DNA of 64,000 bases from Planctomycetota bacterium (GTDB lineage Bacteria; Planctomycetota; Phycisphaerae; Phycisphaerales; SM1A02), in assembly GCA_024230295.1 (NCBI GenBank), contig JAAERN010000069.1:33752-97751 (forward strand), given 5' to 3'. The notes under the pieces were generated by a model. The model made no database searches. It was not told the DNA's origin and saw only the letters and a list, made by a program, of their open reading frames with translations. Shown one piece after another: positions 42,634 to 53,189 of this stretch (positions are counted from its first letter, which is position 1; each line of letters begins with the position of its first letter). A program made the translations under genes and the position numbers.

Positions 42634-42706
42634 GCCACCGTAGCTCAATTGGCAGAGCACCTGATTTGTAATCTGGAGGTTACCGGTTCGATTCCGGTCG
42701 GTGGCT
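42634..42706 (+). tRNA. tRNA-Thr (anticodon UGU)
   Basis: Folded by hand into a cloverleaf. Acceptor stem GCCACCG/CGGTGGC, D arm GCTC-AATTGGCA-GAGC, anticodon loop TT-TGT-AA, T arm ACCGG-TTCGATT-CCGGT. There is one U-U mismatch in the anticodon stem. No CCA is encoded. Confidence 0.9.
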
Positions 42707-42917
42707 TTGGAAACCTGAGGGGGACCAGCATCGCTGGGGCCACAGGTATCCCAAACGCCTAGAGACGCACGAGGCTTCACTGGGTCGAATGCCAATCTCG
42801 CACCGCCATCAAGGGATATGGCTATGAGCTGCTTCAGGAGTGGAACAAAAGTGGGATGTATTCAGTCCGTGATTCAATATCATGGTCGCAGATCACTTTG
42901 TAGGGAGTAGAAACTTG

Positions 42918-44222
42918 ATGCTGCGAGGACGATTTGTGGTCAGTGCCGTATGCCTCTTAGCCAGCGAGGCTGTGGCGAGCGGCTGGGAGATTGTGGCGAG
43001 AACGGCCGAGGACACATCTACGTGTGGCAGCGTGTACGAATCACCCCGCATCGCTGCGAGCGGTGATGTCATTATCCAAGTGGGGGGCTGGTTTGACGAG
43101 TTGGAACAGCCAAAGTGGCACCGCCAATTGCCCAGCGGCGAGGTCGAGCAGCAGGGGACACTCCTGCAGGGTGACTCGTTTAACCCTAGTGGCTACGCGG
43201 TGGACGGGGATGTGTGCATTCTCGGAAAGACCACGGGCTACTTGGAATACGCGCTGGTTTACGAACTTTCCGAGAGCGGTGACATAGCATCCACTGCAAC
43301 TCTGGAGCCGTGGGGCGGAGCGTCGCCCCAGTTCTTTGGGTGGCCAGGGACAGTATCGATGTCGGGAGATATTGCGGCGATCGGCGCGCCCTATGACACA
43401 CCAAATGGATATTCCTCCGGTTCCGTGTGGATCTTTGAGCGAACTTCTGGTGGGAATTGGTCGGGCCTACAGCGGTTTACAGGCGCGTCGAGTGCGTACT
43501 TCGGCTGCAGTGTGAGTGTGTATGGCGACCAGATGGTCGTTGTCGCCGGTGGAAACAGTAAAGCCGAGGACTCCTACGCGTCGGTCTATCGCCGAAATCA
43601 GAGTGGGCAGTGGGCCCTTTACACAAGCATGACTGCGGCATCAATCTGTGATGATCGGTTGGATGGGTGTGCGATCAGTGACACAGCCCTGGTTCTCGTA
43701 TCCATGGCCGGAGAGCATTTCGCGGCACGATGGCAGCCCGATGGAACACTCGGGCCATTTGAATCACTCGGCGGATCGGAATACTCATCAACAAGTCCGA
43801 ACGAGAAAATTGCGCTTTCAAACGAGTGGCTGTCGCTCAATAGGCGCATGTATCGGCTCCCTGATGAGGGCGGATTCGTTGATTCTGGAGTCTTGGCGAT
43901 CACGACTGATGTGGCAGACGGCTCCTACTCCTCCGGAACGATCGCCAGCATGGGGCAAGGACAGATTGCCGTTGGAGCGATCTTTAGGTACTCCTCGGAC
44001 GGAAGCGATTATTACGACTGCCAACAGCACGCGATGATTGTGTTCGAATGGAACTGCGATAGCGATGTCACGTCAGATGCCGTTGTAGATGCCGCAGACA
44101 TCTCGATCATCCTTGATCGATGGGGCTCGTGTTCGGACTGCGAGGGCGATGTCAATGGCGATGGGGTGGTCGATATCTGGGACTTGCTCGACGTGCTTTC
44201 AAACTGGGGACCGTGCGGCTGA
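42918..44222 (+). CDS. secreted FG-GAP/beta-propeller-like protein with two C-terminal dockerin-like modules
   Basis: Start trimmed to the ATG at 42918 (signal VVSAVCLLASEAVASG). It has repeats of the type GDIAAIGAPYD...GSVWIFER and GDQMVVVAGGN...SVYRR. The C-terminus is DAVVDAADISIILDRWGSCSDCEGDVNGDGVVDIWDLLDVLSNWGPCG. Confidence 0.65.
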   Translation: MLRGRFVVSAVCLLASEAVASGWEIVARTAEDTSTCGSVYESPRIAASGDVIIQVGGWFDELEQPKWHRQLPSGEVEQQGTLLQGDSFNPSGYAVDGDVCILGKTTGYLEYALVYELSESGDIASTATLEPWGGASPQFFGWPGTVSMSGDIAAIGAPYDTPNGYSSGSVWIFERTSGGNWSGLQRFTGASSAYFGCSVSVYGDQMVVVAGGNSKAEDSYASVYRRNQSGQWALYTSMTAASICDDRLDGCAISDTALVLVSMAGEHFAARWQPDGTLGPFESLGGSEYSSTSPNEKIALSNEWLSLNRRMYRLPDEGGFVDSGVLAITTDVADGSYSSGTIASMGQGQIAVGAIFRYSSDGSDYYDCQQHAMIVFEWNCDSDVTSDAVVDAADISIILDRWGSCSDCEGDVNGDGVVDIWDLLDVLSNWGPCG

Positions 44223-44244: not shown

Positions 44245-46428
44245 CTACGGATGGGCGGCGATTGCCAGTTGCTCAGAGAGGATTCCATTGACTTCGTCAC
44301 GCCATTGCGAGATTCGCTGCGTTTGTCGCTGAAGTCGCGCTTGGACTTCTACCCGAACATTACCTGCCATGGTCATGGCGTTGGATTGCAGCGGCTGATC
44401 CACAAGGAGTGAGATGATCTCGTCCTGGAGTACAAGGGCGTCGGTGAGCAACTCGGCAAATGCACTCTCCAGTTGAGCTTGAGCCGTCTCTGGCATTGCC
44501 TGAGTCAGCGCGTCGTGTGATGCGCGAACAGCCTCTAGCTCGTAACCGATGCCTGACCAGACGGACTTGAACATACTCCGTCGCCACGCCGATGCAGTTT
44601 TGTCCGGAATCTCGGAGGCGATGGCATGCACCGCGGCATTGATCGCATCGACCGATTCCGTAAACGCTCGTTCTTGGTTGCTGAGGATTGTGGCCATGAC
44701 CTCATTGGGGTTCGACAGCCCAGTTTGATCGGACGCATTGGCGGCACCGGGCGTGCCAACCCGGTGCAGCCTGCAGAGTCCCTGCTGTTCAATCGTTGAA
44801 CTAATCGTGGCGGCGTGTCTGAGGAGGAGCTCCGCGAGCGTGGGGTCGTCCAGATCCAGTCCCGCATCGCTGGCGGATGAAATGATGTTGACATTCCCAA
44901 ACTGTGGCGACATCACCTCAAGGGATGCAGTATTTCGAATGCCCTGCCGCCGCCATGTACGTGCCTGCGTGTGTGCTAGGGCGATCCGAGATGGTGTTGC
45001 ATGAGGCGCGATGGCAGCGATAAGATCGGCATCGATGGCATCTGCGCGAGCGAGCCCTTGTGACTTGGCAGACATCCATTGGGTAAACGCTGCTTCGGCG
45101 TCATTACATCTCCCCGGTTCGATCGGTAATCCCGCTTGAATGAGTTCATCGGTGAGCATTTGTTCGATGGAGGCATCGTGCGCCACCAAGCAATTGTCCG
45201 AGTGAAGTGGAAGATCGAGCGTGCGCTGCAGGGCTTGAAATCGCGTTGTAGACATTGGATGCAGGTCTATTCCGTCTGCACGCCGCAAAGGTGGTGGGGG
45301 CATCGGCAACTCTTGCTGCTTCTTGTGGGCGCCGCGGGCCTTGAGCAGTTGCTGGTAGTCGGCAAAGGGAATGCTTTCGAAAAGCGACCTATTGATCGTG
45401 CCGTCGATCATGGCGAGTGCGGTGCCGGCTTTATAAAAAGTGGTTGAGCCTGTCTGAGTTGCAGCGATCGCCTCGCCCAGCGCTGCCGCAATGTCGGCTT
45501 GCTCGGTCACAATTGCAGTGCATGTTGTTTTGGCGCTCTGAGAGAGTGAGCTCTGTTCGATGTAGGCATGCCAGTCGAGGATGCTGCGAATGGCGGCGTC
45601 ATCATAAGGGGTGTCATCCGCCAGTTTGCTCCGGAGCGGCAATGTGCGGGCTACGTGCGGTGCGACTTCTCCAATGATCTGCTGCACATTGCGGAGGAGT
45701 GAGTCAGCAAGTGTTGCTCGGGCAGTTGCGATCTCCGCTTGTACTGCGCTGATCATGGCGAACATTTCTTCTGGCCTTACGTTTCCTGCTGCTACGTCTT
45801 CGTACAACTCGGCGATCCGATCCATCATCTGTTTATGAAGAACTCGGAGAGCCCGTTTCTGGTCGGCGAGTTGGGGAAGTAAGGCTTCGATGCATGCGCG
45901 ACGCACTTCGGAATTCTCCGTGGCGTCTGGAATGAGCCGCAGGAGATCAAGCGTGTGTCCGCGACCTGCCATCGCTGTTGTCAATGCGCGTGATTGTTGC
46001 TGATGGATCCAGGCTGGAAGCAACATGACTTGATCATCCGACAAAGCTTCAGCGATTCGATCGAAAAGAGCCTGGTCGACTTCTCGCAGCGACTTCAGAA
46101 CGGAGTTGTTCTGGCGGATGAGTGACTTCACGTGACTGCAGTATGCCGCAACGTCGTCGGCGCGGGCACTTGAAGCAAAGTTCATCTCCCTAGCTGCGAG
46201 CGTTGCGACATCTCTGTCCTGTAGCAACTGCCAATCATCGTGATATGTGTTGTAGAGATCTGCAATCGCATGCTTCTGGGCTGCGCTGACATGCAGTGTG
46301 TCGCACACATCGGAAATGATCACTGGCTCGATTGGCAGAGGTGTTGCGCACGAGAAGCACTGGGCTTGCACACGAGCGGTAGATCCGGCCATAACGCATA
46401 CGGTGATAGCGATCGAAAGGGCGTTCAT
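44245..46428 (-). CDS. 727-aa secreted, apparently all-alpha-helical hypothetical protein
   Basis: Start trimmed to the ATG at 46428 with SD AAGGAG. Signal peptide MNALSIAITVCVMAGSTARVQA. The sequence is Ala/Leu/Gln/Asp-rich with no motif I recognise. Confidence 0.65.
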   Translation of the reverse strand: MNALSIAITVCVMAGSTARVQAQCFSCATPLPIEPVIISDVCDTLHVSAAQKHAIADLYNTYHDDWQLLQDRDVATLAAREMNFASSARADDVAAYCSHVKSLIRQNNSVLKSLREVDQALFDRIAEALSDDQVMLLPAWIHQQQSRALTTAMAGRGHTLDLLRLIPDATENSEVRRACIEALLPQLADQKRALRVLHKQMMDRIAELYEDVAAGNVRPEEMFAMISAVQAEIATARATLADSLLRNVQQIIGEVAPHVARTLPLRSKLADDTPYDDAAIRSILDWHAYIEQSSLSQSAKTTCTAIVTEQADIAAALGEAIAATQTGSTTFYKAGTALAMIDGTINRSLFESIPFADYQQLLKARGAHKKQQELPMPPPPLRRADGIDLHPMSTTRFQALQRTLDLPLHSDNCLVAHDASIEQMLTDELIQAGLPIEPGRCNDAEAAFTQWMSAKSQGLARADAIDADLIAAIAPHATPSRIALAHTQARTWRRQGIRNTASLEVMSPQFGNVNIISSASDAGLDLDDPTLAELLLRHAATISSTIEQQGLCRLHRVGTPGAANASDQTGLSNPNEVMATILSNQERAFTESVDAINAAVHAIASEIPDKTASAWRRSMFKSVWSGIGYELEAVRASHDALTQAMPETAQAQLESAFAELLTDALVLQDEIISLLVDQPLQSNAMTMAGNVRVEVQARLQRQTQRISQWRDEVNGILSEQLAIAAHP

Positions 46429-46629
46429 TGGTTGCTTCTCCTTGATTCGGCTGTGCAGCGGTTGATGTCGAGTTGGATCACCTGATCGTTGTGAGTCGCA
46501 ATAACGAGTGGGAGATGAAATGTTGCCAACTTTCGCTGCCTTTCTGCAGTAGTCGCAGAGTGCATGAGGATGCAATGTACTTTCCGCCTGCATTCAACGC
46601 GAGTACGAAAAACGAAACACAAGGAGTGC

Positions 46630-47103
46630 ATGATGATGTTCAAACAAACAATGAAGCGAACGTGTGTGGTGATTGTTGTTGCAGGTGCATGCGGGTGGCC
46701 GCCTGCTATTTTCGCGGGATTGGATAGTCCGTCGGATGTGAATCTGGAGTGCGCAGCGAAGTTCGTCGGGAATGAGTACGGGGGCTGTGCGATGCCGCCA
46801 AAGGTGTGTCCGAATGGTCCATTTACCGGCTACGAATCATGCAAGATCGCAACGTCGCACAAGGGTTGTGCGGGTGTTGCGCAACCGAAGATGGCATTTT
46901 CTGAGAATGAGACGGGGCGGCAGTTTCTGAACATCCCGTGTGGCACCTTGGGTTTGACCTATAGCAGTATGAAGTGCCAGTGCTTTGGCAACTTCTTCGG
47001 GAGCTGCTGGGGACCGTGTGAGCCAAGCGGAGGTATTGCTGGCAGCGGGCAACCATGTCCTGGCGACCTGCGGCGGCTCGTCCAGTGCGAGGTGGATGGA
47101 TGA
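46630..47103 (+). CDS. small secreted Cys-rich hypothetical protein (157 aa)
   Basis: ATGATGATG start with SD AAGGAG. Signal VVIVVAGACGWPPAIFA. The mature part has about 14 Cys. The stop overlaps the next start (ATGA). Confidence 0.6.
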   Translation: MMMFKQTMKRTCVVIVVAGACGWPPAIFAGLDSPSDVNLECAAKFVGNEYGGCAMPPKVCPNGPFTGYESCKIATSHKGCAGVAQPKMAFSENETGRQFLNIPCGTLGLTYSSMKCQCFGNFFGSCWGPCEPSGGIAGSGQPCPGDLRRLVQCEVDG

Positions 47104-48059
47104 TTGGAATGGTGATGTGCGGCGTGGTGCTTGGGATCGCCATTCATGAGATCTCCCCCGGCTCGGAGGTTGAGATTGATCTTGGGTTGGTCGCTGCAGG
47201 AGTATCAATCGTGGTGGAGGTCCCGATTCGAAGTGAACATGCAGATACGTGGTATCTGCCGGAGTCAGATGTGAGCTGTCCCGCGTGTGTAGAGGTTGTT
47301 GAGTGGCCGCACATACTGAATGCAGGCGATGAACAGATGATTCGGCTGCTGGTGACTCCGGGAAGCGAGCCGGGGAGGCACTCATGGGGGGCTGTGTTTC
47401 ACGGAGCCGCAGCACCTCTGCGCGTGAGGTGCCGGGGAGTCGTTCAGGGTCTGTCGGTGAAGCCAAGGCAGGTGCGGCTGGGTGTCTGCGCGAACGGAGC
47501 AGTCTGCGAAGAGCCGATCAGGATCGAGTGGTTTGGGCCGGGTGAGTTGGAATCGGTTTCGTGGGAGTCGGATGACAGCGACGTGATCGTTGTGCCACGC
47601 GACGATTGTGGGCAGGCCTGGGTAGTGCGAGTGACAGGAGCCCGGGAAGAGGTTCGGAACATCGCGGCTCGAATGACATTGAATGCCAGAATCAATACTG
47701 CCGGGGACAAACCGAAGAACGTGAGTTGCTTGGTCACGGCGACCGGGCGAATGATCTCATCGAATCTTCGAGTGGTTCCGGCTTCACTGTTTCTTGGCAC
47801 CGTGTCTCACTTAAAGGCGTGTGAAGGGGAGGTTCGCATAGAAGGTGTTGGCGGGAGTTTAGAGGCATCGGTTGAGGGGATCGCTGGAATGCGGGTGCGT
47901 TGCATCGACACCAGCGGCGGTTCGCGAATTACTGTTTCGTATGCGCCAACAACTGGAACTGCAGGGTGTGTGCGAGGAACAATTGTGGTGCGTTCGCCGG
48001 ACACAGAGGTTGTTGTGGCTCGGATCCCCCTGATTGCATTCGTACGAACAGGAGCCTAG
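47100..48059 (+). CDS. membrane-anchored hypothetical protein with about three beta-sandwich-like repeats
   Basis: The ATG at 47100 overlaps the upstream stop. N-terminal TM segment MIGMVMCGVVLGIAI. Three segments of about 100 aa have alternating beta-strand-like patterns, each with Cys pairs. Any DUF1573-like resemblance is tentative. Confidence 0.55.
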   Translation: MIGMVMCGVVLGIAIHEISPGSEVEIDLGLVAAGVSIVVEVPIRSEHADTWYLPESDVSCPACVEVVEWPHILNAGDEQMIRLLVTPGSEPGRHSWGAVFHGAAAPLRVRCRGVVQGLSVKPRQVRLGVCANGAVCEEPIRIEWFGPGELESVSWESDDSDVIVVPRDDCGQAWVVRVTGAREEVRNIAARMTLNARINTAGDKPKNVSCLVTATGRMISSNLRVVPASLFLGTVSHLKACEGEVRIEGVGGSLEASVEGIAGMRVRCIDTSGGSRITVSYAPTTGTAGCVRGTIVVRSPDTEVVVARIPLIAFVRTGA

Positions 48060-48062
48060 GGA

Positions 48063-49124
48063 ATGTTTCATTGTGCACTGTTGATCGTTTCGCTGGCGTC
48101 CTCGACTGACGTTCCAGGGTGGTGCCAAGAAATACTGCGTGATATTGGGACCGGCCGTATGGAGTGGTCGAGCAGCGAGCTCCTCGCAAGGATTCCGATG
48201 GATGTGCCCGGTGGAGGCCGTAATCAACCACTTGCTGATCAACTTTTCAATGCGTGGAACGCTGCCCGAGATACGCCTCCTGTAACTGTGGATGACGTTC
48301 AGGCGATCTTCTCGGCCAAGCGGGATGCAATCGAGTCGATAGACGTGTTGTATCAATCATCACTCCGAACCGAGAGTGATCCATCAGCTGGTCAACCCGG
48401 GCGAGCATCGGTGTGGTGGACTTGGTGGCGGCAAGATGGTGACTGGCTTGTGCGGCAAGTGGCAAGGGGGAGACCGGGGCTTGCGCAGCCTGCAGATGAT
48501 GCCGGAGCAATGCGGTGGCAGAGTGATCGAAATCGAGTTTGGTTTGCGCGGCTGGATGACAAGCTTCAAGAAATACCGGTTGATTCGGTTCCCATGCTCG
48601 GTGTCGAAGACTCGTGGTTGGGAGCTGGGGGGTGTATTGGGCGCAGGTGGGATGGCACGGCGCGGGCCGTCGAACATGATCTTGCGTCGCTGCTAGAGCG
48701 ATTGCCCAAGGGCACCGCGATTGTCGAATCAGCGACATTGCAACTGGACGATCGGGAAGTAGCGGTTCTCCGCATCGGTTGGCGCACGCCATTCTGGCTG
48801 TACCTGGACATCGGCCGAGGTTTCGCCCCGATGCGCATCGACCGGGTGATGGATGACGAGCATGGACCGATGCTGGCGAGGACGGACCTGTCTGACTTCA
48901 AGCAATGTGCGGGCCTTTGGCTTCCTCGCCAAATTCGCTTGCGGCAATATCGGTTGACGACGACGCGGTTTGGTCCAGGTGACCGACCTACGTCCCCCGC
49001 GTATCTGGAATTGGACCTTCAGGCCGAGCACATCTCGGTGAACGAAGGAATCCAGTGGGGAACTTCGCTGGTCCGTAGCGGAGGCTTGAGACCGGGCCTG
49101 GCAGGGGTGAAAGCGGCCCATTGA
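48063..49124 (+). CDS. hypothetical protein, possibly LolA-like/lipoprotein-sorting fold
   Basis: The ATG lies 3 nt after the upstream stop. It has a short hydrophobic N-terminus. No motif is recognised, and the fold assignment is a guess based on size and strand pattern. Confidence 0.55.
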   Translation: MFHCALLIVSLASSTDVPGWCQEILRDIGTGRMEWSSSELLARIPMDVPGGGRNQPLADQLFNAWNAARDTPPVTVDDVQAIFSAKRDAIESIDVLYQSSLRTESDPSAGQPGRASVWWTWWRQDGDWLVRQVARGRPGLAQPADDAGAMRWQSDRNRVWFARLDDKLQEIPVDSVPMLGVEDSWLGAGGCIGRRWDGTARAVEHDLASLLERLPKGTAIVESATLQLDDREVAVLRIGWRTPFWLYLDIGRGFAPMRIDRVMDDEHGPMLARTDLSDFKQCAGLWLPRQIRLRQYRLTTTRFGPGDRPTSPAYLELDLQAEHISVNEGIQWGTSLVRSGGLRPGLAGVKAAH

Positions 49125-49182: not shown

Positions 49183-49265
49183 GGGCGTGTACCCAAGTGG
49201 CCAAAGGGGACAGGCTGTAAACCTGTTGGCGTACGCCTTCGGAGGTTCGAATCCTCCCGCGCCCA
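49183..49265 (+). tRNA. tRNA-Tyr (anticodon GUA)
   Basis: Acceptor stem GGGCGTG/CGCGCCC, anticodon loop CT-GTA-AA, long variable arm (TGGCGTACGCCTTCG), T arm GGAGG-TTCGAAT-CCTCC, discriminator A. Confidence 0.9.
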
Positions 49266-49274
49266 TTCCCGACG

Positions 49275-49297
49275 GCCCGCTTCGGCGGGCTATTTTT
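49275..49297 (+). terminator. hairpin plus T-run between tRNA-Tyr and tRNA-Pro
   Basis: GCCCGC-TTCG-GCGGGC followed by TATTTTT. Confidence 0.6.
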
Positions 49298-49318
49298 CTA
49301 GTTCGATTTCGACACCGA

Positions 49319-49392
<74 letters not shown>

Positions 49393-49580: not shown

Positions 49581-49997
49581 TCAGCGGCGGTTTGAATCTT
49601 CTTGAAGCACCGCCCTCATCACGCTCAGCGTCGCATCGCTCACATGATGCTCCATTCCCTCCGCGTCCCGGGCGGCATCAGTGGGGGGGACGCCGATGTG
49701 GAGCAGAAAATCAAGTAGAAGCTGGTGCCGCCTTCGAGATCGCTTCGCCATGGCGGCACCCTTTCGCGTCAATGTGCAAGGTCCATACGGATCCTTATCG
49801 ATCAGCCGCTCTGCCGAGAGCCGCTGCAAGATGCGGGTAACCGTGACGTGGCTGACCCCCATCTTGGCGGAGAGATCTTTGACGCGGCAGGTGGGCTGAG
49901 TTTCGAGAATGTCACCAATGGCCTCGACGTAGTCTTCGGCCGTCTCATTGGCGTGATCCTGGCGTGTCTTGACGAATGTGTTGCTTCGGCGGGGCAT
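49581..49997 (-). CDS. DtxR/MntR/TroR-family metal-dependent transcriptional repressor (138 aa, no SH3-like domain)
   Basis: ETAEDYVEAIGDIL, HTH VKDLSAKMGVSHVTVTRILQRL, LTRKGAAMAKRSRRRHQLLLDFL, and DAEGMEHHVS. It is divergent from the metal ABC operon. Confidence 0.85.
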   Translation of the reverse strand: MPRRSNTFVKTRQDHANETAEDYVEAIGDILETQPTCRVKDLSAKMGVSHVTVTRILQRLSAERLIDKDPYGPCTLTRKGAAMAKRSRRRHQLLLDFLLHIGVPPTDAARDAEGMEHHVSDATLSVMRAVLQEDSNRR

Positions 49998-50045
49998 GAA
50001 GGATCTCCTGCCTGAGAAATCGGTTGACCAAACACCATACTAAGT

Positions 50046-50059
50046 GTAGCATCTGCTAC
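50046..50059. promoter_or_regulatory. candidate DtxR-family operator, palindrome 1
   Basis: Perfect inverted repeat GTAGCA-TC-TGCTAC in the divergent promoter region between the repressor gene and the SBP gene. Confidence 0.45.
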
Positions 50060-50063
50060 CGAC

Positions 50064-50081
50064 ATGTAGCATGGGCTACAT
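50064..50081. promoter_or_regulatory. candidate DtxR-family operator, palindrome 2
   Basis: Perfect inverted repeat ATGTAGC-ATGG-GCTACAT. It shares the GTAGC half-site with palindrome 1 and lies 20 nt upstream of the SBP ATG. Confidence 0.45.
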
Positions 50082-50100
50082 TTTAGAGAGGGCAGATGCC

Positions 50101-51048
50101 ATGTGCCGTTTGATTGCACTTATCGGGGCCTTGGGTATTGCCGGAGCCGTTCACGCTGTACCACTGGACATCGTGGCAACAACCGGCATGGTTGCCGACA
50201 TTGCTCGTCACGTGGCGGGGGACCGGGCTACGGTCGTGAACATCATGGGCGAGGGGGTCGACCCGCACTTGTATAAACCAGTGGCGTCGGATGTGCGACA
50301 CATCATGGGCGCTGATGTCGTCTTCTACAACGGCCTCAAGTTGGAAGGCAGGATGGGGGATATTTTTGAACGCGCCGCAGCAAGAGGGCGGTTCGTCCGC
50401 CCCGTCGCCGCCATGGTGGAGGAAGAATACCTGCTTGAGCCAGCCGATCAACCTGGGCATCCCGACCCCCATGTATGGATGGACGTCAAGGCTTGGATGG
50501 CCGCGACTGAAGCCGTCGCAATAGCACTGTGTCAGGCGGATCCGGAGGGCTGTGAGTCCTATCGGAGTCATGCCGCCACATACATTTCTGAACTTGCGCA
50601 GCTCGATGCGTATGTGCGGGGCGTGATCGCCAGCATTCCCAAGGGGCAGCGGGTTCTTGTGACCGCGCATGACGCATTCAACTACTTCGGCCACGCCTAT
50701 GGCTTGGAGGTCATGGGAATTCAGGGAATCTCAACTGATTCGGAGGCTGGACTCGCCGACGTGACTGGTCTTGTCGACATTCTCGTCGAACGGAAGATCC
50801 CGGCGGTGTTCGTCGAGTCGAGTGTTCCGGACAAGTATGTGCGGGCCCTCATCGAGGGAGCCGGCGCTCGAGGGCATGAGGTCATCGTGGGCGGCGAACT
50901 CTATTCTGATGCGATGGGTAACCCCGGGACATACGAGGGGACATACATCGGCATGATTGATCACAACGTGAGCACGGTCGCGAAAGCGCTCGGTGGTGTC
51001 GTTCCAAAGGGCGGTTTCAGAAGTAGCACCGCAGAAACAGGCAAGTGA
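50101..51048 (+). CDS. metal ABC transporter substrate-binding protein (TroA/MntC/PsaA-like, Mn/Fe type)
   Basis: Start trimmed to the ATG at 50101 (signal MCRLIALIGALGIAGAVHA). DPHLYKP and DPHVWMD motifs are present. It lacks the His-rich loop of ZnuA. Confidence 0.85.
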   Translation: MCRLIALIGALGIAGAVHAVPLDIVATTGMVADIARHVAGDRATVVNIMGEGVDPHLYKPVASDVRHIMGADVVFYNGLKLEGRMGDIFERAAARGRFVRPVAAMVEEEYLLEPADQPGHPDPHVWMDVKAWMAATEAVAIALCQADPEGCESYRSHAATYISELAQLDAYVRGVIASIPKGQRVLVTAHDAFNYFGHAYGLEVMGIQGISTDSEAGLADVTGLVDILVERKIPAVFVESSVPDKYVRALIEGAGARGHEVIVGGELYSDAMGNPGTYEGTYIGMIDHNVSTVAKALGGVVPKGGFRSSTAETGK

Positions 51049-51051
51049 CGA

Positions 51052-51870
51052 GTGGATCGCCCCCCAGAAATTCAGCCAACTGTTGCTCGCGGCTCCGAGC
51101 ACGATCCGGATGCTGCGATCTCAATACATGATCTGACCGTTGCGTACGATCGTCGTCCGGTGTTGTGGGATGTCGATCTCGATGTGCCTACAGGGTGCCT
51201 TGCCGCGATTGTCGGGCCCAACGGGGCTGGAAAAAGTACCTTGATCAAGGCATGCCTTGATCTTCTGCCTCGTGTTTCGGGTGACGTGCGAATGTTCGGC
51301 TCGCCGTGGCGATCCGTACGAAGTCGCGTCGCGTACGTGCCGCAGCGAGAAACCGTTGATTGGGATTTTCCGGTCAGCGCGCTCGATGTCGTTGCCATGG
51401 GAACCTATGGGCGATTGGGCTGGCTGCGGCCTGTTGGAAAGGCGCAAAAACAGGCAGCGATGCACGCGCTCGATCGGGTGGGACTTTCGGACTATGCGGC
51501 CCGGCAGATAAGCCAACTCTCAGGCGGCCAGCAGCAGCGCGTGTTTCTCGCTCGCGCCCTCGTGCAGGAGGCTGATCTCTACCTTATGGACGAGCCGTTC
51601 GCGTCGGTTGACGCCGCAACCGAACAGGCCATCGTGGAAGTGCTTCGCGATCTGCGATCCAGTGGGGCGACGCTCGTGGTTGTGCATCATGATTTGCAGA
51701 CTGTGGCCGAGTACTTCGAGCACATCATTCTTCTCAACATGCGTGTTGTGGCTAGTGGTGCGATGGACGAAACACTGACTGCCGACAATCTTCGCGCGAC
51801 TTATGGTGGACGGCTCACCCTGCTTGAGCAGGCGGCGACTGCGCTTGGGCGGCTCTCGAAGGATCGATGA
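51052..51870 (+). CDS. metal ABC transporter ATP-binding protein
   Basis: GTG start. Walker A GPNGAGKST, signature LSGGQQQRV, Walker B LYLMDEPF. Confidence 0.9.
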   Translation: MDRPPEIQPTVARGSEHDPDAAISIHDLTVAYDRRPVLWDVDLDVPTGCLAAIVGPNGAGKSTLIKACLDLLPRVSGDVRMFGSPWRSVRSRVAYVPQRETVDWDFPVSALDVVAMGTYGRLGWLRPVGKAQKQAAMHALDRVGLSDYAARQISQLSGGQQQRVFLARALVQEADLYLMDEPFASVDAATEQAIVEVLRDLRSSGATLVVVHHDLQTVAEYFEHIILLNMRVVASGAMDETLTADNLRATYGGRLTLLEQAATALGRLSKDR

Positions 51871-53189
51871 TCGCCATGTATCTTGCGACGTCGCTTCTGG
51901 ACATTCTGCTGCTCGCCGATTGGAATACGCGGGTCGTGGTCATCGGTACATCCATGCTTGGAGTTGCGGCCGGTGTGGTCGGGGCGTTTCTTGTGCTGCG
52001 TAAGCGGGCACTGCTTGGCGATACCGTGAGCCACGCCATGCTTCCCGGTGTCGTCGGCGCGTTTCTGGTCATGCAAGCCTTCGGGGGTGGTGGGAAGTCG
52101 TTCGCGGGACTCCTTCTTGGTGCGGCGATCGCTGGAGTGCTTGCAGCGTGGGCAATTCCGGTTCTGCGGCGGGCAACGGGGCTCAAGGACGACGCCATCA
52201 TGGGAGTCGTGCTCGGTGGCGGCTTTGGTTTGGGGATTGCCATGCTGGGCGTTGCGCAGGCCATGCCCGGCGGCAACCAGGCGGGCCTGGAATCCTTTAT
52301 CTATGGCCGGACCGCCTCGATGGTGCAGGACGATGCGATTGGGATCGGAGTGACAGCGGTCGTCACACTTCTGATAGCGGTGCTGCTGGCAAAGGAGTTT
52401 CGGCTGCTGTGTTTCGATGAGTCCTTTGGCCGAGCACTCGGGCGAAAGGAAGGGGTACTTGATCTTGGCTTGATGGTGTTGGCCGTTACCGTCACGGTTG
52501 TAGGATTGCAGGCGGTTGGTCTCATTCTGGTCATCGCACTGCTCATCATTCCAGGGGCAGCGGCCAGGTTTTGGACCGATGAGTTCGTGCGAATGGTGTC
52601 TCTCGCAGGCGTCATCGGTGCAGTGGCGTGCTGGCTTGGCGCATCGATCAGCGCGATGGCCCCAGACCTGCCCGCAGGATCCATCATCGTGCTGACGCTG
52701 TCGTCACTCTTTGGCCTCTCGATGCTTGTCGGAACGCGACGGGGGGCTGTGAAGCGGATCATTCAGTCGAGGAAGCTTCGCCGACGAACCGGATGGCAGC
52801 ATCTTATGCGTGCCGCCGCAGAGTCTCTTGAGTCTCAAGGGACTGATACGTGGACGATCGAACAGTTGTCGCCACTTCGAAGCTGGTCGACCAGCCGACT
52901 TCGAGCACTTCACCGCAGCGCGATTCGGCGGGGCGACATCATCAGTTGCGAGGATGGCTATGCGCTGACGGAATCAGGCCGAACTGCGGCCGATCGTGTT
53001 GTTCGAAACCATCGGCTGTGGGAACTCTTCCTGATTCGGCATGCTGATATCGCCGCGTCGCACGTGGATCGTGATGCCGACATGGTCGAGCATGTTCTCG
53101 GAGACGAGCTGGTGGCCGAGTTGGAGACGATCTTGGCAGGCAGCGACGTGGCCTTGGTCAGTCCGCATGCACTTGGGGGACAGGCATGA
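51867..53189 (+). CDS. ABC-3 family metal permease fused to a C-terminal DtxR-like domain
   Basis: About 290 aa of polytopic ABC-3 core. An extension of about 135 aa follows, with LTESGRTAADRVVRNHRLWELFLIRHADIAASHVDRDADMVEHVLGDE. ATGA overlaps occur at both ends. Confidence 0.85.
   Translation: MIAMYLATSLLDILLLADWNTRVVVIGTSMLGVAAGVVGAFLVLRKRALLGDTVSHAMLPGVVGAFLVMQAFGGGGKSFAGLLLGAAIAGVLAAWAIPVLRRATGLKDDAIMGVVLGGGFGLGIAMLGVAQAMPGGNQAGLESFIYGRTASMVQDDAIGIGVTAVVTLLIAVLLAKEFRLLCFDESFGRALGRKEGVLDLGLMVLAVTVTVVGLQAVGLILVIALLIIPGAAARFWTDEFVRMVSLAGVIGAVACWLGASISAMAPDLPAGSIIVLTLSSLFGLSMLVGTRRGAVKRIIQSRKLRRRTGWQHLMRAAAESLESQGTDTWTIEQLSPLRSWSTSRLRALHRSAIRRGDIISCEDGYALTESGRTAADRVVRNHRLWELFLIRHADIAASHVDRDADMVEHVLGDELVAELETILAGSDVALVSPHALGGQA

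What the first reader, a model, noticed from the sequence alone, without database searches (positions are those of the whole stretch)
44245..49124. Divergent orphan module: a 727-aa all-helical secreted protein opposite a translationally coupled trio (Cys-rich peptide, membrane-anchored multi-beta-sandwich protein, LolA-sized protein)
Seen in the sequence: the 200-nt AT-rich region 46429..46629 drives two divergent units, each with a strong AAGGAG SD. Leftward is a 727-aa Ala/Leu/Gln/Asp-rich protein with a signal peptide and an N-terminal CFSC motif. Rightward are three genes. The first is a 157-aa secreted protein with about 14 Cys. The second is a 319-aa protein with one N-terminal TM helix and about three repeats of 100 aa each containing Cys pairs; its ATG overlaps the previous stop (ATGA at 47100). 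The third is a 353-aa protein starting 3 nt after the previous stop. Inference: tight coupling implies stoichiometric co-production, as in a complex. A small disulfide-rich secreted component, a membrane tether and a periplasmic carrier-sized protein could form an export, maturation or sensing module for the Cys-rich protein. I recognise no enzymatic motif, so this is a candidate undescribed system with low functional resolution.
Basis: inference. Interest (0 to 1): 0.6.

Follow-up and report, generated by a model that had tools for sequence, protein, structure and literature searches.

The report
Cysteine-rich protein envelope module, protease-less variant
Four neighbouring genes of an uncultured marine planctomycete (Phycisphaerales) form a real, fast-evolving envelope module built around a small secreted protein with 12 fixed cysteines; its partners are an Ig-like protein with a redox-type CxxC motif, a LolA-shaped protein and a large helical protein, and no searched paper describes the combination, whose function is still unknown.

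Summary
In detail: the genes, starts, Shine-Dalgarno sites, the ATGA overlap and the 3-nt gap are as described. The four genes are not chance neighbours. The same divergent A | B-C-D layout sits between tRNA-Thr and tRNA-Tyr/Pro in 10 of 15 species of the genus. It evolves far faster (A 22-42 %, B 37-50 %, C 25-51 %, D 40-69 % identity) than its flanks (73-95 %). D has a LolA-superfamily fold (Z 14). C is a divergent DUF1573-type Ig-like protein with an invariant CxxC. B keeps 12 invariant cysteines. A is all-helical with no structural match. Distant relatives in Phycisphaerae metagenomes fuse C to D, and B homologues lie just upstream. Many of those loci add an exported C39-like peptidase (fused to C or to D), thioredoxin-like genes or an ECF sigma/anti-sigma pair. 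No C39 gene was found in this genus, and B has no double-glycine leader. My best reading: a protease-less variant of a rare extracytoplasmic cassette that folds and handles one disulfide-rich protein. The scan has noted related C39-containing cassettes on other DNA (at least eight notes); paper searches found no description. Function is inferred, not shown.

The parts
44245..46428 (-). A: 727-aa secreted all-helical protein. It has a signal peptide, then a CxxC (QCFSC) at the mature N-terminus. It is divergent from B-C-D.
   Evidence: ORF and translation. AF2 model pLDDT 80, all alpha. No PDB match: Foldseek E>0.4 and VIA Z<=9.8, generic helical bundles only. No Pfam or NCBIfam family. Weak LTXXQ leads only. 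Orthologues sit in the same divergent position in 9 species at 22-42 % identity. The CxxC is kept in 8 of 10.
46429..46629 (.). Divergent intergenic control region (about 160-225 nt in all species).
   Evidence: Sequence. Alignment of 10 species shows two conserved blocks. The scan found no sigma-70 consensus site.
46536..46549 (.). Conserved 14-bp inverted-repeat motif (CTGC-N6-GCAG here; ATGC-N6-GCAT in three species). Candidate operator.
   Evidence: Alignment: the outer positions change together (C..G to A..T). It occurs once in the 2.7-Mb assembly. Its function is inferred.
46578..46583 (+). Conserved TAnnnT hexamer (TACTTT), a candidate -10 element for B-C-D.
   Evidence: Conserved column block in 10 species, 45-60 nt upstream of B's start. 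Inference only.
46630..47103 (+). B: 157-aa Sec-exported protein. The mature part is about 125 aa with 12 invariant Cys. No double-glycine leader.
   Evidence: No Pfam, NCBIfam or PDB sequence match. Homologues lie next to D homologues in distant loci: hhalign 99.8 %, 97.5 %, 96.3 %, 91 %.
47100..48059 (+). C: 319-aa protein with an N-terminal hydrophobic segment. It is DUF1573-type Ig-like with an invariant S-C-x-x-C motif. Its start overlaps B's stop (ATGA).
   Evidence: Pfam DUF1573 hits 3 of 10 orthologues below threshold. hhalign 97.8 %, E 1e-12, over 289 columns to a bona fide DUF1573 protein. Fused to D in P0015 and P0017.
48063..49124 (+). D: 353-aa protein with an N-terminal hydrophobic segment, a helical region (~19-88) and a LolA-superfamily half-barrel (~70-340). 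It carries a strongly conserved but poorly modelled loop (177-204).
   Evidence: AF2 pLDDT 75, pTM 0.74. Foldseek E 7e-9 to 3bk5, 3buu and LolA3. VIA Z 14.6 (4z48, DUF1329), 14.2 (9tp6) and 14.0 (3bk5). Only 44 library-wide HMM hits in 1.84 billion representatives.
42634..42706 (+). tRNA-Thr(TGT): left boundary of the variable block.
   Evidence: ARAGORN. The same tRNA lies just left of A in G003, G007 and G010.
49183..49392 (+). tRNA-Tyr(GTA) and tRNA-Pro(CGG): right boundary of the block.
   Evidence: ARAGORN. The same pair lies right after D in G007, and tRNA-Tyr right after D in G003.

Best explanation
This is a conserved but accessory cell-envelope module of one uncultured marine Phycisphaerales genus. 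It is built around a Sec-exported mini-protein with six probable disulfides (B).

B is co-translated with two exported partners that act as one unit. C is a DUF1573-type Ig-like protein whose invariant CxxC most likely performs thiol-disulfide exchange on B, either oxidative folding or proofreading. D is a LolA-fold half-barrel that holds or carries B, or a hydrophobic part or ligand of it, near the membrane. A, the divergently transcribed 727-aa helical secreted protein with its own N-terminal CxxC, is a genus-level periplasmic partner or scaffold under the same control region.

The module is a protease-less derivative of a wider, rare planctomycete cassette. In that cassette an exported C39-like peptidase also trims a double-glycine-type leader from the Cys-rich protein.

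Shown: gene structure, synteny, homology, folds and gene fusions. Inferred: exported location, redox role of C, carrier role of D, and any contact with B or A.
For: 1. Linkage. The same A | B-C-D layout, with overlapping or near-touching B/C/D junctions, occurs in 10 of 15 species of the genus. It sits at one chromosomal site between tRNA-Thr and tRNA-Tyr/Pro.

2. C and D act together. P0015 (761 aa) and P0017 (737 aa) are C-like plus D-like fusions (hhalign 98.2 % and 96.2 % over ~290 columns for the C part; HMM E 2e-21 and 7e-13 for the D part).

3. B belongs with D. B-family homologues lie 0-3 genes upstream of D-family genes in five independent distant loci, L046, L053, L057 and L075 clearly and L054 weakly. 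The 12-Cys pattern is kept.

4. Redox theme.
- C keeps an invariant Cys pair: C-x-x-C in all C-like relatives, C-G-C in canonical DUF1573.
- DUF1573/OS_HP2 has selenocysteine forms with U-G-C at that motif (tables in PMC9312934 and PMC13188914; NF041425 hit). Sec-for-Cys forms are typical of redox-active sites (general knowledge).
- Thioredoxin-like genes with CxxC lie in two distant loci.
- A starts with a CxxC in 8 of 10 species.

5. D is a LolA-superfamily fold. Distant D-like proteins carry C-terminal membrane anchors, so the unit is membrane-tethered.

6. Link to the C39 cassette.
- C39-like domains (invariant Cys-Gly and His) are fused to C-like (L053) or D-like (P0039) parts, or encoded beside them (L054, L075).
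- In L074 the neighbouring Cys-rich protein, not detectably a B homologue, has a signal peptide followed by a classical LSxxEMxxIxGA leader.
- In this genus neither Pfam C39 nor the cassette's own C39 profile finds a gene, and B has no such leader.
Against: - No direct evidence of binding, of redox activity or of expression.
- The window's C does not itself reach any Pfam or NCBIfam threshold.
- A has no significant similarity to the 731-aa helical protein coupled to the fusion gene in L046. A also belongs to a broader helical family that occurs elsewhere without B, C or D. A's membership of the module therefore rests on genus-level synteny only.
- D's best-conserved loop is the worst-modelled part (pLDDT <50), so nothing can be said about a binding site.
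- LolA-fold proteins usually bind lipid moieties, and B is not consistently a lipoprotein.
- Five genus members lack the module, so it is dispensable.
Confidence: 0.4

Rival explanations
1. B is a secreted antimicrobial or competition factor (bacteriocin-like Cys-rich protein). C, D and A serve as its handling or self-protection (immunity) proteins, and the module diversifies under an arms race.
For: - All four proteins diverge much faster than their flanks: 22-69 % against 73-95 % identity.
- The module is present in some genus members and absent in others, at a tRNA-bounded variable site.
- Relatives carry C39-type peptidases, and one carries a classical double-glycine leader, both hallmarks of bacteriocin maturation.
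Against: - There is no ABC exporter and no recognisable immunity family.
- B uses a Sec signal peptide.
- B's scaffold is strongly conserved (12 Cys and several Gly/Pro motifs invariant) rather than hypervariable.
- No integrase or mobility gene lies in the block.
Confidence: 0.17
2. The module is an envelope stress or signal sensor. D would act like RseB/MucB (a LolA-fold sensor) and A like a CpxP/Spy-type LTXXQ periplasmic protein. B would be the ligand or reporter, read out by an ECF sigma factor encoded elsewhere.
For: - D matches RseB/MucB at fold level (Foldseek E 5e-6, VIA Z 8.4).
- Two distant loci place the cassette directly beside an ECF sigma factor, and one also has a FecR-type anti-sigma.
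- A's nearest language-model clusters include LTXXQ/DUF4890 families (score 0.90-0.91). One orthologue hits LTXXQ at E 1.4e-4.
Against: - No sigma, anti-sigma or other signalling domain lies in the tRNA-bounded block in any genus member.
- C, D and A have no predicted cytoplasmic part to pass a signal.
- D matches DUF1329, LolA3 and LolB (Z 12-15) far better than RseB.
- The LTXXQ evidence is below every threshold.
- Adjacency to an ECF sigma may only mean the cassette is an ECF target.
Confidence: 0.12
3. D is a lipid or lipoprotein carrier, or an outer-membrane sorting factor as in other LolA-like proteins. B, C and A would be surface or wall structural proteins that merely share its operon. 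Planctomycete envelopes are rich in Cys-rich proteins.
For: - D has the LolA/LolB/DUF1329 fold.
- All four proteins carry export signals.
- Cystine- and proline-rich envelope proteins are known in planctomycetes (own knowledge, not checked here).
Against: - No LolCDE or other lipid-handling gene lies in the locus.
- The C-D, C39-C and C39-D fusions, and the fixed pairing with one small Cys-rich family, argue for a dedicated protein-handling unit.
- The D family is tiny, with 44 hits in 1.84 billion representatives, unlike a housekeeping carrier.
Confidence: 0.12
4. The four genes are unrelated neighbours or mis-called ORFs.
For: There is no family annotation for any of the four in the window, and no expression data.
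Against: - The reading frames are conserved, with invariant residues, across 10 species at 22-69 % identity.
- The order and the junctions are conserved.
- Gene fusions occur in relatives.
- The D and A models are confident.
Confidence: 0.02

Closest known systems
LolA/LolB superfamily, large 'outer-membrane lipoprotein-sorting protein' type (PDB 3bk5, 3buu NE2245, DUF1329 4z48, P. gingivalis LolA3 9tp6 and LolB 9tpm; also RseB/MucB)
   Same: D residues ~70-340 adopt the unclosed beta half-barrel. VIA Z is 14.6, 14.2, 14.0 and 12.4 over ~205 aligned residues, and Foldseek probability is 1.00. D is exported.
   Different: - Sequence identity is only ~10 %, and no Pfam or NCBIfam LolA-type model matches.
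- D has an extra N-terminal helical region and a conserved ~30-residue loop.
- D is genetically tied, and in relatives fused, to an Ig-like protein or a C39 domain.
- There is no LolCDE and no lipoprotein cargo in the locus. LolA3's own function is also unknown (PMC13103446).
DUF1573 (PF07610) / OS_HP2 (NF041425) Ig-like domain family, which includes selenoprotein forms
   Same: C aligns over its full length with bona fide DUF1573-headed proteins (hhalign E 1e-12). The conserved Cys pair sits at the family's signature position.
   Different: - The motif is C-x-x-C instead of C-G-C.
- The window protein is below Pfam threshold.
- It has a three-domain architecture coupled to a LolA-fold partner.
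- No function is known for DUF1573 itself.
Double-glycine leader maturation by C39 peptidase domains of ABC exporters (PCAT1, ComA, CvaB, LahT), and the scan's own 'periplasmic double-glycine cassette' notes
   Same: Distant homologous loci combine the same B, C and D families with a C39-like peptidase. One neighbouring Cys-rich protein there has an LSxxEMxxIxGA leader.
   Different: - This genus has no C39 gene, no GG leader and no ABC exporter.
- In the relatives the C39 domain follows a signal peptide, so it is predicted to lie outside the cytoplasm.
Periplasmic oxidative folding and isomerisation (DsbA/DsbB, DsbC/DsbD, CcdA-thioredoxin pairs)
   Same: There is an exported CxxC protein next to a disulfide-rich substrate. 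Thioredoxin-like, CcdA-like genes occur in related loci.
   Different: C is an Ig-like beta-sandwich by homology, not a thioredoxin fold. No quinone- or DsbD-type electron partner lies in this locus. Redox activity is untested.
Spy/CpxP/CnrX LTXXQ periplasmic helical proteins
   Same: A is exported and all-helical, with L/S-x-x-Q-like N-terminal helices. Its nearest language-model clusters carry LTXXQ/DUF4890.
   Different: A is 4-5 times longer. The only sequence hit is one sub-threshold match in one orthologue. The structural match to CnrX is Z 8.4, which is not above the helical background.

Membership tests
LolA/LolB superfamily (fold level) | Unclosed antiparallel beta half-barrel with helical lid or plug | tested here: met
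   AF2 model pLDDT 75. Foldseek E 7e-9, prob 1.00. VIA Z 14.6, 14.2 and 14.0 over ~205 residues.
LolA/LolB superfamily (sequence families PF03548, PF17131 and others) | Match to a curated LolA-type HMM | tested here: not met
   No Pfam or NCBIfam hit at E<=1 for D or for any of 11 orthologues.
Lol lipoprotein transport pathway | Works with LolCDE, carries acylated lipoproteins | tested here: not met
   No LolCDE-type genes in the block or its flanks. B lacks a consistent lipobox. Lipid binding itself is not testable here.
DUF1573 (PF07610) | Score above Pfam gathering threshold | tested here: not met
   The window's C has no hit. 3 of 10 orthologues hit below threshold, best E 6e-4.
DUF1573 (PF07610) | Homology to bona fide members, with the conserved Cys pair in the first Ig-like domain | tested here: met
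   hhalign 97.8 %, E 1e-12 to a 364-aa protein that scores 45 bits on PF07610. S-C-x-x-C is invariant.
PCAT-type / C39 double-glycine maturation | C39 peptidase with catalytic Cys and His | tested here: not met
   PF03412 and the cassette's own C39 profile (A6) find nothing in G000 (97.6 % complete) or in 12 genus members. C39 is present in distant loci.
PCAT-type / C39 double-glycine maturation | Double-glycine leader on the substrate | tested here: not met
   Only 5-15 residues separate signal peptide and first Cys, with no LSxxELxxIxGG pattern in 11 orthologues. A classical leader is seen only in L074.
PCAT-type / C39 double-glycine maturation | ABC exporter fused or adjacent | tested here: not met
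   None in the block. The nearest ABC system is a ZnuABC-type metal importer beyond two tRNA genes.
RseB/MucB anti-sigma-binding sensors | Adjacent sigma-E-type sigma factor and anti-sigma factor | tested here: not met
   None in the window block or in genus loci. An ECF sigma, with or without FecR, lies beside two distant cassettes.
RseB/MucB anti-sigma-binding sensors | Two-domain RseB fold | tested here: inconclusive
   Z 8.2-8.4 to the RseB N-domain only, well below the DUF1329/LolA3 matches.
LTXXQ (Spy/CpxP, PF07813) | HMM match or Spy-like helical cradle | tested here: inconclusive
   No hit for the window's A. One orthologue hits at E 1.4e-4. Language-model neighbours 0.90-0.91. CnrX Z 8.4, within the helical background.
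Thioredoxin-superfamily oxidoreductases (Dsb) | Thioredoxin fold around the CxxC | tested here: not met
   C is homologous to Ig-like DUF1573 proteins. No thioredoxin-type Pfam hit in A-D. C was not folded here.

The most novel reading that the evidence does not exclude
A DUF1573-type Ig-like domain with a CxxC and a LolA-fold domain together form a previously unrecognised, non-thioredoxin extracytoplasmic machine. It oxidatively folds one dedicated six-disulfide protein and then carries it. The C39 leader-cutting step seen in relatives is an optional add-on that this genus has lost. This would give DUF1573 its first function and give LolA-fold proteins a protein cargo rather than a lipid one.
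Probability: 0.22. Interest if true: 0.75.

Novelty: new variant of a known kind. Interest (0 to 1): 0.5.

Why it matters
- **A handle on three families of unknown function.** DUF1573, the large LolA-like 'sorting protein' type, and a new 12-Cys family are tied here to one testable unit. All pairwise gene fusions (Ig-LolA, C39-Ig, C39-LolA) say the parts work together.
- **What the core is.** This genus lacks the protease, so the conserved core is the Cys-rich protein plus the CxxC Ig-like and LolA-fold partners. That separates the folding or handling question from leader cleavage.
- **What follows if the redox reading is right.** It would add a non-thioredoxin player to extracytoplasmic disulfide chemistry.
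- **What follows if B is a competition factor.** It would be a new class of Sec-dependent antimicrobial protein in marine planctomycetes.
- **Limits.** The distribution is narrow, the organisms are uncultured, and no function has been shown.

Tried and rejected
- **Complex prediction** (B as partner against C+D, with alignments): score 0.01, 'no answer'. It is neither support nor evidence against.
- **The search for homologous proteins** with the A and B profiles returned only the query's own clusters, because of the word-index limit.
- **PDB sequence profile searches** for B, C and D gave nothing significant.
- **A's model** had no match: Foldseek E>0.4, and VIA-wide Z<=9.8 with generic helical bundles only.
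- **A's profile against the 731-aa helical protein** coupled to the fusion gene in L046 showed no significant similarity.
- **ESM Atlas for B:** no usable feature hit, and the Atlas model has pLDDT 0.28, so its structure rows are meaningless.
- **Small Cys-rich proteins in L043 and L074** are not detectably B homologues.
- **FG-GAP gene (42882-44222)** considered as a fifth member and rejected. It is absent from the same position in G003, G007 and G010.
- **~810-aa helical paralogue family** in other genomes sits in a different context, a lipoprotein plus a 407-aa protein, with no B, C or D.
- **Conserved intergenic palindrome** searched genome-wide: only this one site, so no regulon was found.
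- **Sigma-70 promoter scan:** no site.
- **Paper searches** on DUF1573; LolA-like with Planctomycetes; C39 with LolA and cysteine-rich; and Phycisphaerae with cysteine-rich found no description of such a module.

Full report
**1. The observation**

The window holds the four ORFs exactly as described.
- A is on the minus strand, 46428 to 44245 (727 aa). It begins with a signal-peptide-like segment followed by Q-C-F-S-C.
- B is 46630-47103 (157 aa).
- C starts at 47100 within an ATGA that also ends B (319 aa).
- D starts at 48063, three bases after C's stop (353 aa).
- AAGGAG lies before both divergent starts.

B has 14 Cys. Two are in the signal peptide. The other 12 are invariant in 11 orthologues. 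The intergenic region is only slightly AT-richer than its surroundings.

None of the four matches a Pfam or NCBIfam model, even at E<=1.

The flanks are ordinary.
- Left: a 2-oxoacid:ferredoxin oxidoreductase beta subunit, MnmG, tRNA-Thr and an FG-GAP protein.
- Right: tRNA-Tyr, tRNA-Pro, a DtxR-type repressor and a ZnuABC-type importer.

**2. The genes are real and linked**

The assembly is a 2.7-Mb, 97.6 % complete MAG. Its relatives are labelled Phycisphaerales or Phycisphaerae bacterium.

B, C and D each have a match in 10 of 15 other species of the genus, always the same ten. A's orthologue lies beside them wherever the contig reaches.
- The divergent A | B-C-D order is kept.
- The B/C and C/D junctions are overlaps of 1-4 nt or gaps of a few nt in nearly every species.
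- In G003, G007 and G010 the block sits, as here, right after tRNA-Thr(TGT). In G007 and G003 it ends right before tRNA-Tyr (and tRNA-Pro).
- The FG-GAP gene is not part of the block in those genomes.

Identity to the window's proteins is 73-95 % for the flanking proteins. For the module it is only 22-42 % (A), 37-50 % (B), 25-51 % (C) and 40-69 % (D). The module is conserved in architecture but evolves fast.

Five genus members lack it. In G014 other genes follow tRNA-Thr. The module is therefore accessory.

In a sample of 400 genomes spread over the class, the D profile found only one further weak match. In an exhaustive HMM search of 1.84 billion representatives it found 44 proteins at E<=1e-3.

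**3. What each protein is**

*D.* The AlphaFold model (pLDDT 75, pTM 0.74) shows N-terminal helices and a long antiparallel sheet.
- Foldseek gives E about 1e-8 and probability 1.00 to 'outer-membrane lipoprotein-sorting protein' structures, LolA3, DUF1329, LolB, LolA and RseB.
- VIA-align gives Z 14.6 (4z48), 14.2 (9tp6) and 14.0 (3bk5) over about 205 residues.
- The ESM-Atlas shape search points to the same kind of protein.
- The most conserved stretch (residues 177-204) is modelled with low confidence. Its Cys and His are not kept in distant relatives, so I do not read it as a catalytic site.

*C.* Pfam DUF1573 hits three of ten orthologues below threshold.
- The C profile aligns over 289 columns (97.8 %, E 1e-12) with a 364-aa protein that passes the DUF1573 threshold.
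- The only invariant cysteines form an S-C-x-x-C motif at the family's signature position.
- All C-like relatives keep C-x-x-C. Canonical DUF1573 has C-G-C.
- Two reviews list DUF1573 among prokaryotic selenoprotein families, with U-G-C at this motif (PMC9312934, PMC13188914).
- A C-like relative also hits the OS_HP2 (seleno)protein model.
- From general knowledge, Sec-for-Cys forms mark redox-active sites. I therefore read the CxxC as a candidate redox centre. This is an inference.
- Sequence evidence for three internal repeats is weak.

*B.* About 125 mature residues carry 12 invariant Cys and several invariant Gly/Pro motifs. It has no family, no PDB relative and no usable language-model neighbour.

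*A.* The model is all-helical (pLDDT 80) with long helical hairpins and bundles.
- It has no specific structural match.
- The leads to LTXXQ/Spy-CpxP-like families are weak: neighbour score 0.90-0.91, and one orthologue at E 1.4e-4.
- The N-terminal CxxC is kept in 8 of 10 species.
- A has more distant relatives of about 800-900 aa in other genera. These sit in another context.

**4. Distant relatives show what belongs together**

| Locus / protein | What it holds |
|---|---|
| P0015 (L043), P0017 (L046) | Single proteins with a C-like N-terminal part (hhalign 98.2 % and 96.2 % over ~290 columns) and a D-like C-terminal part |
| L046 | A B homologue upstream (96.3 %); a 731-aa helical protein translationally coupled downstream, not detectably similar to A |
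| L053 | A B homologue (97.5 %), then a C39-like, TM and Ig(CxxC) fusion, then a D homologue |
| L054 (a Phycisphaerae MAG) | A thioredoxin-like CxxC protein, a weak B homologue, a C39-like protein with a C-terminal anchor, a bona fide DUF1573 protein, and a D homologue with a C-terminal anchor |
| L075 | ECF sigma, FecR-type anti-sigma, B homologue (91 %), C39-like, DUF1573, D-like, then a glutaredoxin/thioredoxin-like membrane protein |
| L074 | ECF sigma, a different Cys-rich protein, a C39+D-like fusion (P0039; Pfam C39 5e-12; D part hhalign 93 %), DUF1573 |
| L057 | A B homologue (99.8 %) directly before a D homologue |

All three pairwise fusions exist: Ig-D, C39-Ig and C39-D. The B family travels with the D family. 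The C39-like domains keep a Cys-Gly and a His and follow signal peptides, so they are predicted to lie outside the cytoplasm.

**5. How this genus differs**

Neither Pfam C39 nor a profile of the cassette's own C39-like domains finds a gene in G000 or in 12 genus members.

Matching that, B's mature part starts 5-15 residues after the signal peptide, with no double-glycine leader. The Cys-rich protein of L074, beside the strongest C39 domain, shows a classical LSxxEMxxIxGA leader behind its signal peptide.

The scan's earlier notes describe C39, DUF1573, LolA-like and Cys-rich cassettes on other genomes. They read them as periplasmic double-glycine maturation systems. I had reached the C39, DUF1573 and LolA association independently. 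The leader idea came from those notes, and I tested it here. The window is a protease-less, leader-less variant of that cassette, with a genus-specific helical partner.

**6. Mechanism**

My best reading (confidence 0.4) is as follows.
- B is exported by Sec.
- The exported C-D unit handles it.
- C's CxxC exchanges disulfides with B.
- D's half-barrel holds or carries B, or a hydrophobic ligand of it.
- A is a periplasmic helical partner under the same control region.

Rivals:
- a secreted antimicrobial protein with handling or immunity proteins (0.17);
- an RseB/CpxP-like envelope sensor read by an ECF sigma (0.12);
- a lipid or lipoprotein carrier with unrelated wall proteins (0.12);
- chance neighbours (0.02).

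The remaining probability is for functions not thought of.

**7. Control region**

Aligning the A-B intergenic regions of 10 species shows two conserved elements.
- The first is a 14-bp motif with inverted-repeat ends whose outer bases change together: CTGC-N6-GCAG or ATGC-N6-GCAT (46536-46549 here).
- The second is a TAnnnT hexamer about 30 nt downstream (46578-46583).

They are candidates for an operator and a -10 element. The motif occurs once in the assembly.

**8. What could not be done**

- The binding prediction gave no verdict.
- Paper searches found no description of the module.

**9. Verdict**

The finding is real and its interpretation is broadly right. It is one more instance of a recurring cassette that the paper searches did not find described, and an informative one because it lacks the protease. 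It consists of known folds (LolA, DUF1573 Ig-like) plus two proteins without a family. Interest is moderate (0.5): the function is inferred, the distribution is narrow, and the scan has already noted the wider cassette on other DNA.

Noticed in passing
window 46536-46549 and 46578-46583: Conserved inverted-repeat motif (CTGC-N6-GCAG, or ATGC-N6-GCAT with co-varying ends) and a TAnnnT hexamer in the A/B divergent intergenic region of 10 species. The motif occurs once in the assembly.
   Followed up: partly
L033, L034, L039, L012, L036/L037, L041/L005 (genus loci): In most MAGs of the genus the contig ends inside or right next to this module, often at tRNA-Tyr. This suggests strain-level variation or assembly trouble at this tRNA-bounded site.
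   Followed up: no
window 42882-44222: The FG-GAP repeat protein between tRNA-Thr and A appears only in this genome (fragments in G006). It looks like a local insertion into the variable block. An FG-GAP protein also lies near the distant cassette in L054.
   Followed up: partly
L049 6808-11078; L051 5205-9461; L050 6167-11545: A family of ~800-860-aa secreted helical proteins, distantly related to A's N-terminus, occurs in other genera and in genus members that lack the module. In two of the three loci it is followed by a ~200-aa lipoprotein and a ~400-450-aa protein. This may be a separate conserved trio.
   Followed up: partly
L061 2270-8556; L059 174-6390: In genus members without the module, MnmG is followed by a ~770-800-aa protein and a ~1280-aa secreted protein with 43 Cys that starts with a GACC-type Cys-rich motif.
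   Followed up: no
L075 7636-9872: Next to a distant cassette lie two further genes. One is a glutaredoxin/thioredoxin-like domain fused to a multi-pass membrane domain (weak ArsG/CcdA-like hit). The other is a 284-aa secreted protein with 18 Cys and weak DUF11 and ETX/MTX2 hits.
   Followed up: partly
window 49581-53189: A DtxR-type repressor lies beside a ZnuABC-type importer whose permease carries a C-terminal DtxR metal-binding domain (PF02742).
   Followed up: partly
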